Shown: in pieces, positions 3,603 through 28,267 of the stretch | Position numbering within the stretch: position 1 is the stretch's first letter | Layout: every line of letters begins with the position of its first letter | From: Chiloscyllium plagiosum | Lineage: Eukaryota | DNA: 36,829 nucleotides | Assembly (NCBI RefSeq): GCF_004010195.1 | Contig: NC_057752.1 | Coordinates: 13,786,300 to 13,823,128 of the forward strand | Reading direction: 5' to 3' | Notes under the pieces: generated by a model | Seen by the model: only the letters and a program-made list of their open reading frames with translations | Database searches by the model: none | Told to the model about the DNA's origin: nothing | Translations under genes and position numbers: made by a program

Positions 3603-5804
3603 GTGTCCCAACAGCGTATATCTCTGATGTGCAGGATTTGTTCCTTATGTGGTGTTGTTCTTTGAAGTCTTATTCAGTTCCTCACCCATCGGGTCTGTGG
3701 TGTGACATTATTGATGATCTTTTAGATTCTTTCCCCGTCCAAAATATTGATTTCTCTCTGGGATCCTCGAGCCTGCAGCTTCCTTCCTTATCAGAGGTAG
3801 TTCCTCTGTTCCTTGTTACACTTGGCCTTAACTCTCTGCTTGAAGACGCATCCTGTCTTGCAATCAACTCCTTCAATTCTTTCGCAGCGCAGTCATTTGT
3901 CCTTCTGGCCTACTGCAGCCAGTTAGTGAGCTGATGTCAAAATGGTTTTGTTAATATAGCTAGTTGCTTTCAATTCCCTCTGTAACAGCATGCCTTTGTC
4001 CCTTTATTCCAGAGTTATTGCTCATCCCTGTATCTTCTTTCATCCTGGATGGAAGAACTGGATGGATGGACTCTTTCCATCCATGAGCAGTTATTAAAGA
4101 ATCCTAAAGTTTATTATATCACACCCATCTCTGTGGACCTCTTCCCTCCCATGCTTATCTGATTTCCATTCAAAATGAGTTGTCATCTCCACTTTCACCA
4201 CCTCCATGCCCAGTCACTGGGTTAAAAACAAAGTTCTCCCTCGCTTTTCTCTGCTGGCTCCCCAGCCACTACCCAAAACCAGAAATCTTAGGCCCCTAAG
4301 CCTTGTACCAAGAATAATGTACTCTTATGTAAACCTTATAACCACGAACATCTCGATCAATTCTCCCCTCAATCTCCTTCGTTCCAACGAACTCGACTCC
4401 AGCTTCTCCAAACCAAGCCTCTAACTGACCCCCTCCTCCCAACAAGACTTTGGAAATATTTGTGTAGACCACCTTTCAATCCTTCCTGAAGTGTGATGAA
4501 TGGAACTCAGCAAAATCCTCCAGTTGTAGACCAGCCGGAGTGTCTCTATTAAGTTCCATGTGGCACTCCACGTAACGATAGGCCATTTCGTTTAACACCT
4601 GTCTATTGTAAAGGATGTGCAGTAATAGCAGAGCATTTTGCAATACGTAATGTAATCAAGCAGGGTCAGCAGGGTTCCAGGAAGGGGAAATGATGTCTGA
4701 CAAACTTACTGGAATTCTTTGAGGAGGTAACAAGCCGGAGAGGTAAAGGGGGAGTGGTGAGTGTAATATATTGGATGTTCAGAAGCTTGTTTGATAAGGT
4801 GCTGCACATTAGGTTACTGAATAAGATAACAGCCCATGGTTTTGGGGGCAGTATATGAGCATGGTTTGAGGATTGGTGAACTGAGAAAAGACAGAGAGTA
4901 GAGATAAGGGGGCCATTTTCAGGATGGCCACCCATCACTCGTGGAGTACCACGGGTGACTCTAAGTACTTTTTAAAAGGTTGTGAGGTTACCAGTCTAAA
5001 CTACCCTCCCAGGCAGTGCATTCTATACCCCCTCACCACCCTCTGGGTCAAAAACATTTACCTCAAAACAACCTTTTTAAAAGCTAAACTAACTGAGAAA
5101 AGACAGAGTAGGGATAAGGGGGCCATTTTAAGGATGGCCACCCATCACTCGTGGAGTACCACGGGGGTCATTGCTGGAGCCACAATTATTGCCAATATAC
5201 ATTACTGGATGAGGAAAGTGCATGTACTGTACCCACGTTTGTGAATAACACAGAAATAGGTGGGAAGGCAAGGGGTGAGGATGACACACTGAGTCTGCAG
5301 AGGGATCTAGACAGGTTAGGCCAGTGGCAAAAACTTGGCACATGGAATACAATGTGGGGAAAACTGTGAGGTTGTCCACTTTGGCAGGAAGAATAGAGGA
5401 GCTGAATATTATTTAAAGGGAGAAAGACTGCAGAAAGCTACAGAGCAGAGAGATTTGGGAATCCTTAGCCGTGAATCACGAAAAGCTAGCATCCAAGTCC
5501 AGCGGGGAATAGGGAAGGCCAAGGGAATGTTGGTCTTTATTCCAAAGGGAATGGAGTATAAAAATCAGGAGGATTTGCTAAACCTACACAAGGCACTGGT
5601 CAGACCATAGCTGGGATACTGTGAACAGGTTTGGATCCCTTTCCCTGAGGAAAGACAGACTGACATTGGAGGCAGCCCAGAGAAGGTCCACTCGGCTGAT
5701 CCCGGGTATGGAGGGACTGTCCCATGAGGAGAGGTTGAGGAGGTTGGGCCTGGACTCATTGGGGTTTAGAAGAATGAGAGACGACCTTATTGAAACATCT
5801 AAGA

Positions 5805-10539: not shown

Positions 10540-10716
10540 AAAATACTGACCCAGTTTGAGGAAACTCGGGCAGCATCTGTGTAGAGAGAAAGGGGAAAAA
10601 CAGTTAATGTTTCGAATCAGGTATAACACTTCATCAGGATTCTGCCCTGAAGAAGGGTGACTGCTTCGCTCTCTCCACAGGTCTGCCAGACCCTGCTGAG
10701 TTTCTCTGGGCAGTTC
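10540..10716. mobile_element. Degenerate palindromic element of a related older family
   Basis: gaaactcgggcagcatctgtgtagagagaa ... ctctctccacaggtctgccagaccctgctgagtttc are inverted relatives. The minus strand has a CUGAUGAA...GAAACAUU remnant at 10603-10640 and the + strand has a ctgaagaagg remnant. Confidence 0.5.
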
Positions 10717-16218: not shown

Positions 16219-16381
16219 GTGAGGTGGGGAGGTGGAGTCAGTTCCAGAAAAGGGATCCCTCGGAGCAAGCGATATCCCGTGATGTTTGCTTTTCCCAAAG
16301 GGAGCAAGGCATGTAACGAGAGCCTTTGTGCAGCTATTCTGAATTCTGTGGAATCTGATCAATGTCTTTTTCTCTCTGCAG

Positions 16382-16522
16382 GGCTGGTTTGCTGGGCGCA
16401 ACTTGGCGATTTCCCAAGTCACGACGAAATATCTGCTCTGGGTCGACGATGACTTCATTTTCACTGCAAACACCAAGCTGGAAAAGCTGGTGAACATCTT
16501 GGAGAAGACAACACTGGATTTG
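16382..16522 (+). CDS. B4GALNT1: Internal coding exon (141 nt, phase 0/0) of B4GALNT1-like gene containing the DXD motif
   Basis: Acceptor ctttttctctctgcag, donor gtaaga. Translates [47 protein letters not shown], continuing MPFGK in frame. Confidence 0.94.
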
Positions 16523-16887
16523 GTAAGATGGCCACACCGATCTCGGCACTAGCCAGCCGGAAAGCTTTGCCGTTTTCGCTGGTTGTGGAACAACTTTGTT
16601 ATTGGGAATCATGTTTCCAACTGGCATCTACTGCTGACATCTTCTTTCTTGTCCATCTGGGACCATCCTAATTTCCACAATCTAGAATCACACTTACCCG
16701 CTGCTCCGTCAGCTAAAGCCTTACATTGGGGAAGGACCGATTGTTCCAGTTTGTGAAATGGGCGTGACTGTTGCAGAGAATGTGGTTGACATGTCATTTG
16801 GGTTACAGAGGAACTGGTCACTGGAAGGATAATGGTTTGTGTAGCATTGCTTTGATATGCTCATTTCACATTAAGTAATACATTATT

Positions 16888-17172
16888 CAGGAGAAAGTGG
16901 GGACTGCAGATGCTGGAGATCAGAGCTGAAAATGGTGTTGCTGGAAAAGCGCAGCAGGTCAGGCAGCATCCAAGGAGCAGGAGAATCGACGTTTCGGACA
17001 TGAGCCCTTCCCACTCAGATGTACGAAAGTGCAGGAGTACAGTTGGAAGTAGTACAGGAAACGTCAATTCTCCTGCATTCCTGAAGAAGGGCTCATGCCC
17101 GAAACGTCGATTCTCCTGCTCCTTGGATGCTGCCTGACCTGCTGCACTTTTCCAGCAACACATTTTCAGCTG
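16888..17172. mobile_element. Short palindromic non-autonomous element, probably Penelope pseudo-LTR derived, with 10-bp TSD
   Basis: Inverted arms of about 85 bp. TSD atacattatt at 16878-16887 and 17173-17182. Contains a hammerhead motif. Confidence 0.8.
17077..17112 (+). ncRNA. Minimal hammerhead ribozyme-like motif in hairpin element
   Basis: AUUC-CUGAAGA-A-GGGC-UCAU-GCCC-GAAA-C-GUC/GAUU. Perfect 4-bp stem II, weak stem I. Confidence 0.65.
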
Positions 17173-17891
17173 ATACATTATTAACACCAACTCAGATATA
17201 GCCTTACCGATTTGGATTTATTGAAGCCAGTATGGCACGCATTGACTCACATGCCTTTTCCACAGTGTTCTTGACACAGTGACCCTTGCCCACACCCTCT
17301 TCCTTCCCAACTCCCTGCAGGTTAGCGTACCTTGGTTTCAATGTGGATAAGTGACCCTGTTGTACAATCTTTATACTCGAGGGGGATGGTTTGAAGTCCT
17401 GGCCCAGGCTGTACTGAACCGGTTCAGAGCACCAGGCCACAGATAGATGCCTTTCTTCCTGCTGCGTACTGAAGGATAGATTCAGCAAACTCTCTGGTTG
17501 AGAGATAGAACTCAAAGCTGCAATGGTCAGTGACATGTGGGACAGCACTTAGTGATGTTCTAAATCTGCTGCCTTTTGAAATGTGGCTCCCCACTCAGAT
17601 GTATGAAAGTGCAGGAGTACAGTGGGAAGTAGTACAGGAAATGTGAGTTGTACAGAGTACAGGAGAATGTGGCCACACATGACACCATCTTAGGTACAAG
17701 TACCTAGATACAGAATCATAAGAGCAAGATAGAAAGAAAGGATAAAGTTAAAAGTTAAACACTGCAGTAATTTTTGGTAGAAAATAAAGAAATAAAGCTG
17801 AAAGTTCAAACATTACGGTCTTTCTTAAGTGCTTAGCGACGGTGGAACTGCACTTCAAGGAATCACCTCAAGACTGGAAGTCCACGCTGAA

Positions 17892-20795: not shown

Positions 20796-21522
20796 TTATT
20801 CATTCGTGGCATGTGGGTGTCACTGCCTGGGCCGAGCATTTATTTCCCCGTCCCTAATTGCTCCCTTGAGAAGGTGGGGGTGAGCTGCCATCTTGAATCG
20901 CTGCGGTCCATGTGCTGTGGGTTGACCCACAATGCCCTGAGGGAGAGAATTCCAGGATTTTGACCCAGCGACACTGAAGGAACAGCAATATATTTCCAAG
21001 TCAGGATGGTGTGGGGCTCGGAGGGGCTGGTGTTCCCATGTATCTGCTGCCCTTGTCCTTCTAGATGGAAGTGGTCGTGGGTTTGGAAGGTGCTGTCTGA
21101 GGGTCTTTGGTGAATATCTGCAGGGCACCTTGTAGATGGTACACACTGCTGCTACTGAGCGTCGGTGGGGGGAGGGAGTGGGTGTTTGTGGATGTGGGGC
21201 CAATCAAGCGGGCTGCTTTGTCCTGGATGGTGTCGAGCTTCTTGAGTGTTGTTGGACCTGCCCCCATCCAGGGGCAAGTGGGGAGTATTCCATCACATTC
21301 CTGACTTGTGTCTTGTAGATGGTGGGACAGGCTATGGGAAGACAGGTGGCCAATCAAGCGGCTGCTTTGTCCTGGATGGTGTCGAGCTACTTGAGTGTTG
21401 TTGGACCTCCCCCATCCAGGGGCAAGTGGGGAGTATTCCCTCACCCTCCTGACTTGTGCCTTGTAGATGGTGGGACAGGCTATGGGAAGACAGGTGGGGA
21501 GTTACCCATTGTAGCCTTCCTA
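20796..21522 (-). mobile_element. 3' end of CR1/L2-group LINE with internal 150-bp tandem duplication
   Basis: TLKKLDTIQDKAARLIG, HRRSVAAVCTIYK. caatcaagcg at both 21201 and 21351. Confidence 0.82.
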
Positions 21523-27302: not shown

Positions 27303-27495
27303 AGCTGGAAAAGCGCAGCAGGTCAGGCAGCATCCAAGGAGCAGGAGAATCGACGTTTCGGGCATGAGCCCTTCTTCAGGCTCATGCCCGAAACGTCGAT
27401 TGTCCTGTTCCTTGGATGCTGCCTGACCTGCTGCGCTTTTCCAGCAACACATTTTTCAGCTCTGATCTCCAGCATCTGCAGTCCTCACTTTCTCC
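27303..27495. mobile_element. Second copy of the palindromic element, opposite orientation, inserted in a CR1 LINE, with 12-bp TSD
   Basis: TSD tccaaagtgaat at 27291-27302 and 27496-27507. Arms are nearly identical to those of 16888-17172. Confidence 0.82.
27348..27383 (-). ncRNA. Minimal hammerhead ribozyme-like motif in hairpin element
   Basis: Minus strand reads C-CUGAAGA-A-GGGC-UCAU-GCCC-GAAA-C-GUC/GAUU. The 5' side of stem I is lost at the fold-back junction. Confidence 0.55.
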
Positions 27496-28267
27496 TCCAA
27501 AGTGAATGACCTCACATTCATCCAAATTATGCTGCATCTGCCATTGATTTGCCCACTCAACCCAACCTGTCCAGATCGTGCTGAAGGATCTCTGTATCCT
27601 TCCCACCCAACTTGGTATCATTTACAAGCTTTGAGATGTTACGTTTTGTTCCCTCATCCAAATCATTAGTGTATGTTATGCATAGCTGGGGTCCCAGCAC
27701 TGGTCCCTGTGGCATCACTAGTTACTGCCTGCCAGTTTGAAAAGGACCCGTTAATTCATAATCTTTGTTTCCTCTTTCTTCTTTCCAGATTTTTATCCAT
27801 CTTCATACACTTCCCCCACTCCCATGCGCTTTAATCTTGCATAATAATCTCTTATGTAGGACTTTGGACTTTCAGAAAGCATTTGACAAATATACCACAT
27901 TGATTGTCTCCCCTTTGTCAACTCTACTAGTTACAACTTCATAGAATTCCAACAGATTTGTCAAGCATGATTAAGGAGCAGAATTAAAGCTGTTTAGCCC
28001 ATCGAGTCTGCCATTCAATCATGGCTGATATGTTTCTCAGTCCCATTCTCCTGTCTTCTCTCTGTAACCCTGATCCCCTTATTGTCAAGAGCCTATCCTT
28101 CTCTGTCTTAAATACACTCAATGACTTGGCCTCCAGAGCCTTCTGTGGCAATGAGCTTCACAGATTAACCAACCTCTGGCTGAAGAAATTCCTCCTTATC
28201 TCAGTTCGAAAGGATCGGCCCTTCAACATGAGGCTGTGCCTCAAGTCCTCGTCTCGCCTTCTCGTAG

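What the first reader, a model, noticed from the sequence alone, without database searches (positions are those of the whole stretch)
17010..17641. Hairpin element captured 52 nt of neighbouring genomic DNA in its loop
Seen: 17010-17061 (cccactcagatgtacgaaagtgcaggagtacagttggaagtagtacaggaaa) is a direct copy, with 2 mismatches, of 17590-17641, exactly 580 bp downstream and outside the TSD. The right junction gaaa(c/t)gt is shared with the ribozyme GAAACGUC, and a short duplicate gaaacgtcaattctcctgc follows. The other two copies lack this insert. Inference: microhomology-guided template switching onto local DNA or the host pre-mRNA (same strand as B4GALNT1) during insertion, a mechanistic footprint of PLE integration or repair.
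Basis: partly seen in the sequence, partly recalled or inferred. Interest (0 to 1): 0.7.

Follow-up and report, generated by a model that had tools for sequence, protein, structure and literature searches.

The report
Nearby DNA copied into Penelope hairpin
An old mini-insertion of a Penelope-like jumping gene in a shark gene intron holds, exactly where its two mirror-image halves meet, a 52-base copy of DNA from about 400 bases away; it is a real scar of a polymerase borrowing a nearby template, a known kind of event, and one case cannot say whether it formed during insertion or later.

Summary
Confirmed: 17010-17061 copies 17590-17641 (50/52, offset 580). It lies at the joint of a head-to-head pair of Penelope-like pLTR arms (10-bp TSD, 35-nt one-sided tail, minimal hammerhead motif) in an intron of a shark B4GALNT1-like gene, followed by a 19-nt element-derived duplicate. 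Public contigs show the 52-mer is not part of the family and the donor is near single-copy. The element is already at this site in two related species, so no empty site was seen. At one of the two mismatches the insert keeps the ancestral CpG base that this species' donor has lost, so it is an old genuine copy, not an assembly echo; no record spanning the loop itself was displayed. Best model (0.45): during integration the left cDNA end primed three times along the exposed opposite strand (donor, inside the right arm, right-arm end). Later repair of a break at the hairpin tip (0.30) and an RT jump onto pre-mRNA (0.20) remain open. The 'same strand as the host gene' argument does not discriminate, and a 7-nt microhomology is unsupported (3-4 nt). 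Local templated fillers are known for L1 and for Pol-theta/MMBIR repair. A single case is ordinary; a genome-wide survey would be informative.

The parts
16878..16887 (+). Left target-site duplication (10 bp, AT-rich)
   Evidence: Identical to 17173-17182 (D14)
16889..16923 (-). 35-nt one-sided 'tail' at the outer end of the left arm (3' end of the element's sense strand)
   Evidence: Absent from the right arm; hundreds of other copies end at 16889 in all 4 runs (loose ends 589-947 contigs); 30-40-bp tail is a PLE feature
16889..17010 (-). Left pLTR arm; stops 10 nt short of the start of the right arm
   Evidence: Reverse complement of 17086-17171 over 16924-17010 with 2 substitutions and 1 gap in 87 columns
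17010..17061 (+). 52-nt filler copied from 17590-17641 (donor-only core 17011-17057; 1 nt shared with left arm, 4 nt shared with the next piece)
   Evidence: 50/52; depth in bin 17010-17059 is 540-2,010 against 7-21 million in the arm bin before it, so not family sequence
17058..17076 (+). 19-nt element-derived duplicate (second templated piece)
   Evidence: 18/19 to 17101-17119 and to the reverse complement of 16977-16995 (D6 and I2)
17076..17171 (+). Right pLTR arm without tail
   Evidence: many other copies have loose ends before 17076/17077 and behind 17171, though 17076/77 is also where my reference arm begins, so that clustering is partly built in
17081..17108 (+). Minimal hammerhead motif: core 17081-17087, unpaired A 17088, 4-bp helix II 17089-17100, GAAAC 17101-17105, predicted cut after 17108
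   Evidence: Motif scan; architecture as in PMC4209133; no Rfam hammerhead hit; helix I weak in folding; activity untested
17173..17182 (+). Right target-site duplication
17590..17641 (+). Donor of the filler, 408 nt beyond the right TSD
   Evidence: Depth 1.3-1.6x the single-copy flank in the two runs of this organism and 1.8-4.1x in the two relatives, against 264-521x for the repeat that starts at about 17660; 17604 is C in both relatives
16382..16522 (+). Exon of a B4GALNT1-like gene; element and donor lie in the intron after it
   Evidence: PDB 9h6j hit E 3.7e-21; 100% to Chiloscyllium and Rhincodon proteins; tblastn places this and one upstream exon on +, none downstream in the window

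Best explanation
A non-autonomous Penelope-like pLTR insertion was made from both ends of a 10-nt staggered cut: the top strand was extended from the tailed RT start (left arm) and the bottom strand from the tail-less start (right arm), so the two cDNAs had to be joined in the middle. While that joint was open, the 3' end of the left cDNA primed on the bottom strand of the right-hand DNA end, exposed by resection or unwinding. It copied 52 nt of flank 514 nt from that strand's 3' end, let go, re-annealed by 3-4 nt inside the right arm 25 nt from the end, copied about 15 nt more, let go again and sealed at the terminus. The filler is thus a two-piece, DNA-templated, microhomology-guided insertion. 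Shown: anatomy, local single-copy donor, antiquity. Inferred: priming from both ends, DNA template, order of steps, timing at integration. The polymerase (host repair polymerase or the PLE RT on DNA) is not determined.
For: The filler sits exactly between the two arms, with the TSD and both outer ends intact. All three templates lie on one strand in order of decreasing distance from its 3' end: 514, 25, 0 nt. The first junction shares 1 nt and the second 3-4 nt, the pattern reported for Pol-theta templated insertions (primary microhomology >1 bp in 16%, secondary in 57%; direct repeats come from the second resected end; PMC7165422 passages). A purified PLE protein cleaves and extends both target strands and starts RT at two sites that bound the tail (PMC11167929). 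Fillers at joints are common in this family: 800 listed joints carry inserted letters among 1,132 listed (counting incomplete in 3 of 4 runs). Ages are compatible: filler/donor 2 of 52, arms 2 of 87, TSD 0 of 10, against 5.1% (64 of 1,244) flank divergence to relative B; Fisher p = 1.0 for both comparisons. Comparable local fillers occur at L1 insertions.
Against: The tract (52 nt) and distance (408 nt past the TSD) exceed typical Pol-theta insertions (3-30 nt, typically within 30 bp) and typical L1 templated insertions (within 15 bp). The first priming step has only 1 nt of homology. The microhomologies are short enough to be chance (6-16%). The divergence counts cannot separate integration from a later event (95% interval for filler/donor 0.5-13%). 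The loop was not seen in the relatives or in any displayed record. No empty site was found.
Confidence: 0.45

Rival explanations
1. Later repair. The element first inserted as a near-perfect hairpin with a short loop. It later broke at the tip, and end-joining with a small one-sided loss plus the same two-piece templated filler repaired it and widened the spacer to 75 nt.
For: A break at the centre gives the same strand geometry as an open integration joint. Long, similar, short-spacer inverted repeats are fragile, and a 180-bp human palindrome has mediated insertions (PMC7999016 passages). The element folds at -117.6 kcal/mol, z -19.8. The only firm date is that capture preceded the donor's C>T at 17604, which could be after the species split.
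Against: Similar short-loop hairpins persist unbroken (copy at 27304-27497). The right arm begins where many other copies begin (with the reference caveat). The filler is not detectably younger than the arms.
Confidence: 0.3
2. RT jump onto host pre-mRNA. The bottom-strand cDNA ran off the 5' end of the element RNA, restarted on element RNA at 17119, switched by the 3-4-nt match onto nascent B4GALNT1 intron RNA, copied about 50 nt and was joined to the left arm.
For: The longer microhomology is on the side where this switch would start. The donor is in the same intron and in sense orientation. RNA templates would allow a long distance. L1 RT switches between RNAs (PMC11702581, PMC13174262 passages). 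PLEs mobilise unspliced host sequence (PMC3846280).
Against: It needs three templates and a mid-template switch. Orientation is uninformative because either cDNA end may switch. The filler is intronic, so it carries no splice signature. Expression of the gene in the germ line was not tested.
Confidence: 0.2
3. Not a local capture: an assembly echo of the donor, or a piece of family consensus or of a dispersed repeat that happens to lie nearby.
For: Hairpins are hard to assemble, and no record spanning the loop was displayed. The donor lies about 20 nt from a high-copy repeat and has slightly raised depth in the relatives (1.8-4.1x).
Against: The insert carries C at 17024 where both runs of this organism show only T at donor 17604, while both relatives have C there (one also with G>A at 17605, i.e. 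decay of an ancestral CpG on the other strand). An echo would carry T. Depth excludes family consensus and a common repeat at 85% likeness. There is no second copy in the window.
Confidence: 0.03

Closest known systems
Inverted (head-to-head) pLTR insertions of Penelope-like elements (PMC8557442, PMC3846280, PMC11167929)
   Same: Inverted 5'-truncated copy, one-sided 30-40-bp tail, 8-10-bp TSD, AT-rich target, minimal hammerhead in the pLTR
   Different: No ORF here. The inverted junction holds a local genomic filler. PMC3846280 explains head-to-head junctions by self-priming, which leaves no open central joint at the target.
Host DNA captured by Adineta vaga Penelope elements (PMC3846280, passages)
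   Same: Host sequence lying between pLTRs inside one TSD
   Different: There the spacers are 0.9-1.5 kb or a whole gene and no donor next to the insertion is described in the passages read; here 52 nt from 408 nt away, at the inverted junction
Templated insertions at L1 integration sites (bioRxiv 10.1101/2024.08.27.596794: 22 cases in a set of 3,598 insertions; PMC11702581: 3 cases)
   Same: Non-element DNA from near the target copied into the insertion; junction microhomology; twin-primed cDNAs joined centrally
   Different: Different retroelement class; L1 donors typically within 15 bp of the site against 408 nt here; here both arms are the same pLTR sequence
Pol-theta templated insertions (PMC7165422) and MMBIR-type templated insertions (PMC8421209)
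   Same: Direct-repeat filler, several rounds, short first and longer second microhomology
   Different: Tract and distance larger than typical Pol-theta products; MMB-TI as defined there are inverted copies within 100 bp

Membership tests
Penelope-like element (non-autonomous pLTR insertion) | Inverted 5'-truncated pLTR copy adjacent to the first | tested here: met
   Arms 16924-17010 / 17086-17171, head to head
Penelope-like element (non-autonomous pLTR insertion) | 30-40-bp tail on one end only | tested here: met
   16889-16923, 35 nt; family ends at 16889 and near 17171
Penelope-like element (non-autonomous pLTR insertion) | Short TSD at an AT-rich target | tested here: met
   10-bp TSD, 9 of 10 A/T; not checked against an empty site, none was found
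Penelope-like element (non-autonomous pLTR insertion) | Minimal hammerhead motif in the pLTR | tested here: inconclusive
   Core, unpaired A and helix II present (architecture); helix I weak; no Rfam hit; cleavage untested
Penelope-like element (non-autonomous pLTR insertion) | Linked RT plus GIY-YIG ORF of the mobilising partner | not testable with these tools
   No genome held; no ORF fits in this 284-nt insertion
Pol-theta templated insertion (TINS) | Insert repeats flanking DNA, direct or inverted, in one or more rounds | tested here: met
   Two templated pieces
Pol-theta templated insertion (TINS) | 3-30 nt, template typically within 30 bp of the break | tested here: not met
   52 nt, 514 nt from the joint; the 19-nt piece (25 nt away) does fit
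Pol-theta templated insertion (TINS) | Dependence on POLQ | not testable with these tools
   Needs a genetic assay
L1-type templated insertion at integration | Local non-element DNA inside the TSD of a retro-insertion | tested here: met
   Filler between the TSDs, donor outside and near single-copy
L1-type templated insertion at integration | Arose in the same event as the insertion | tested here: inconclusive
   Divergences compatible but uninformative; loop not seen in relatives
Non-LTR retrozyme | Tandem direct repeats, each with a complete hammerhead | tested here: not met
   One complete sense motif, arms inverted; the duplicate lacks the first core strand and helix II (definition)

The most novel reading that the evidence does not exclude
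Local genomic fillers at the centre of shark PLE hairpins are a recurrent product of integration itself. If so, head-to-head pLTR pairs are made by priming from both target ends and are sealed last at the centre, at the target site, rather than by self-priming of the RNA. The very large number of copies in this genome would then be a fossil assay: donor side, orientation, distance and host transcription would show whether DNA or nascent RNA is borrowed and how far the ends are opened. Unchecked notes from this scan describe four further local captures (0.7-1.3 kb) in the same genome.
Probability: 0.35. Interest if true: 0.6.

Novelty: new member of a known kind. Interest (0 to 1): 0.35.

Why it matters
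How Penelope-like elements form their inverted ends is still open: self-priming was proposed from genome structures (PMC3846280), while a purified protein cuts and extends both target strands (PMC11167929). A filler of target-site DNA at the inverted joint, if it dates from integration, favours two-ended priming with a central joint sealed last. This one case has no evident effect on the host gene and cannot settle timing or template. Its value is as one well-dated example (shared insertion, ancestral allele kept) for a survey that could.

Tried and rejected
A genome-wide survey was not possible: no genome is held. Element motifs found nothing in viral, metagenome or prokaryote genome contigs. 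A 19-nt motif gave 48 metagenome loci whose longest match to the element is 34 nt, treated as chance, and none showed the donor among the rows printed. The donor has no match in plasmids. Rfam gave no hit at gathering scores; the miRNA-precursor hit at E 5.8e-5 is far below its threshold and reflects the hairpin. Depth in bin 17010-17059 could not show presence of the filler, because arm ends spill into it. An extra contig over 17604 in run X10 could not be identified. The value 'dup->armR 10' is an artefact of comparing the duplicate with itself and was discarded; that junction shares 1 nt as far as the family start can be read. The ungapped 95% arm identity was replaced by the gapped count. 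CpG decay at 17642, which would lengthen the microhomology to 7 nt, was considered and found no support in the rows shown. A junction at the ribozyme cut site was rejected because the duplicate begins 8 nt upstream. Four literature searches on PLE inverted junctions and one on extra nucleotides at retrotransposon junctions showed no paper, by listing, on local fillers at PLE inverted junctions; the library lacks most subscription journals. Supplementary figures that bear on donor distance (Fig. S10 of PMC11702581, Supplementary Fig. 4d of the bioRxiv L1 paper) were not seen.

Full report
Observation. The 52 nt at 17010-17061 match 17590-17641 at 50 of 52 positions in direct orientation, offset 580. 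The best other place in the window matches 27-28 of 52. A 10-bp TSD (16878-16887, 17173-17182) bounds a 284-nt insertion, and the donor starts 408 nt beyond the right TSD. After the filler comes a 19-nt piece (17058-17076) that equals 17101-17119 at 18 of 19 and is equally the reverse complement of 16977-16995. The two other copies in the window join their arms directly, sharing 1-2 nt.

The element. The left arm (16889-17010) is the reverse complement of the right arm (17076-17171) plus a 35-nt extension at its outer end; the shared part differs by 2 substitutions and 1 gap in 87 columns. The right arm begins with a minimal hammerhead motif built like those described in PLE pLTRs, including the unpaired base before helix II (PMC4209133, part 1 of 4 read). 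Rfam does not score it and helix I is weak. An inverted truncated copy and a one-sided 30-40-bp tail are standard PLE features (PMC8557442 passages). The tail corresponds to two RT start sites, and the purified protein cleaves and extends both target strands (PMC11167929, parts 1-2 of 4). The partner ORF could not be sought because no genome is held. The host is a B4GALNT1-like gene on the plus strand, with an exon identical to carpet-shark proteins.

Public contigs. Of 21 runs listed, four contig sets were laid on 16260-17759 at 85% likeness: X15 and X1 (this organism; X1 may be the assembly's source), X9 (relative B) and X10 (relative C). The results follow.

(a) Not consensus. Depth is 7-21 million in the arm bin before the filler and 540-2,010 in the filler bin. 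The tool warns that depth is no copy number, but the contrast is about four orders of magnitude.

(b) Not a common repeat. The donor bins are 1.3-1.6 times the single-copy flank in X15 and X1 and 1.8-4.1 times in X9 and X10, against 264-521 times for the repeat starting at about 17660.

(c) Old insertion. The flank contigs of B and C end inside the element on both sides (X9: 16260-16910 and 17142-17759; X10: 16260-16910 and 17147-17748), as do this organism's own. Only 1 of these 4 reaches the tool's 31-letter bar for bridging; the others hold 22-26 element letters. No joint skipping the element was among the 15 shown of 1,132. I read this as the element being present in all three species, so no empty site was seen.

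(d) Genuine copy. Donor 17604 is T in both runs of this organism but C in B and C, and B has G>A at 17605. The insert has the intact CG. It therefore preserves the ancestral base, which an assembly echo of the donor would not, and capture preceded that mutation.

(e) Against the longer microhomology. Donor 17641 is G in B and C, and no change at 17642 is shown (106 rows hidden), so the shared stretch is 3-4 nt.

(f) Limits. No record spanning the loop was among 32 displayed pieces, so neither the loop in this organism nor its presence in B and C was seen directly. 800 of the 1,132 listed joints carry inserted letters, so fillers at the joint are common in the family, but their sources cannot be read from the table.

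Dating. Filler against donor is 2 of 52 (3.8%, 95% interval 0.5-13%), arm against arm 2 of 87, TSD 0 of 10, and flanks against B 64 of 1,244 (5.1%, including the exon). Fisher p = 1.0 for filler against flanks and against arms. This fits one old event but cannot exclude a later one.

Mechanism. The plus strand of the left arm and the minus strand of the right arm are each antisense to the element RNA and each continues from a TSD, so the simplest origin is priming from both target ends with a central join (inference). Read along the top strand, the three templates (donor, inner right arm, right-arm start) lie on one strand, 514, 25 and 0 nt from its 3' end. The first junction shares 1 nt and the second 3-4 nt. 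This matches iterative templated insertion from the partner end (PMC7165422 passages), though tract and distance are larger than typical there. I give this DNA-templated, at-integration model 0.45. A later break at the hairpin tip yields the same geometry (fragility: PMC7999016 passages) and gets 0.30. An RT jump onto nascent intron RNA by the bottom-strand cDNA gets 0.20: it starts at the longer microhomology but needs three templates. Microhomology of 4 or more at any of three junctions arises by chance in 5.8% of random joints, 3 or more in 16%.

Known relatives. Local templated DNA inside L1 insertions is documented: 22 cases in a set of 3,598, typically under 250 bp and within 15 bp of the site (bioRxiv 10.1101/2024.08.27.596794 passages), and 3 cases in PMC11702581 (passages). 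Host DNA between pLTRs is documented in rotifer PLEs, where self-priming was proposed for head-to-head junctions (PMC3846280 passages). MMBIR-type multi-template insertions occur as germline variants (PMC8421209 passages). The element is not a tandem retrozyme (bioRxiv 10.64898/2026.07.22.740005, part 1 of 5 and passages). Searches listed no paper on local fillers at PLE inverted junctions, within a library that lacks most subscription journals. Earlier notes of this scan report similar local captures elsewhere in this genome; I did not check them and use them only as a reason for a survey.

Verdict. A real, old, locally templated two-piece filler at the joint of a PLE hairpin. It is a new example of a known kind of event, with timing and template unresolved. 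Interest 0.35. It would rise to about 0.6 if a survey showed such fillers to be a regular product of PLE integration.

Noticed in passing
window 17660-17672 vs 16888-16900: The 13 nt at the element's tailed end, including the extra base 16888 between TSD and family end, match a stretch 19 nt past the donor at 12 of 13, the best non-self match in the window. Unexplained; may be chance after many comparisons.
   Followed up: partly
joints 16969 to 17076: One loop variant with 9 inserted letters has depth 602 in X1 and 299 in X9 against about 12 for single-copy flanks, so some finished hairpins seem to have been multiplied as units, and before the species split.
   Followed up: no
joint 17112 back to 17077 in X10: Other copies also show a piece of the right arm followed by a restart at 17077, like the short duplicate here (depth 669).
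   Followed up: no
window 10609-10637 (minus strand): A second, different hammerhead-like motif, probably from another PLE-like family.
   Followed up: no
window 4879-4955 and 5091-5165: A 77-nt direct repeat (94.8%) encloses about 135 nt that includes a fragment of another repeat family; possibly an unusually long target duplication.
   Followed up: no
window 21198-21497: Tandem duplication of about 152 nt at 95% identity inside a repeat.
   Followed up: no
window 16379-16519: Runs X9 and X10 each hold a second contig over the exon only, with 21 other letters: probably a paralogous B4GALNT gene.
   Followed up: no
window from about 17660: A different high-copy repeat begins about 20 nt after the donor (depth 264-521 times single copy).
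   Followed up: partly
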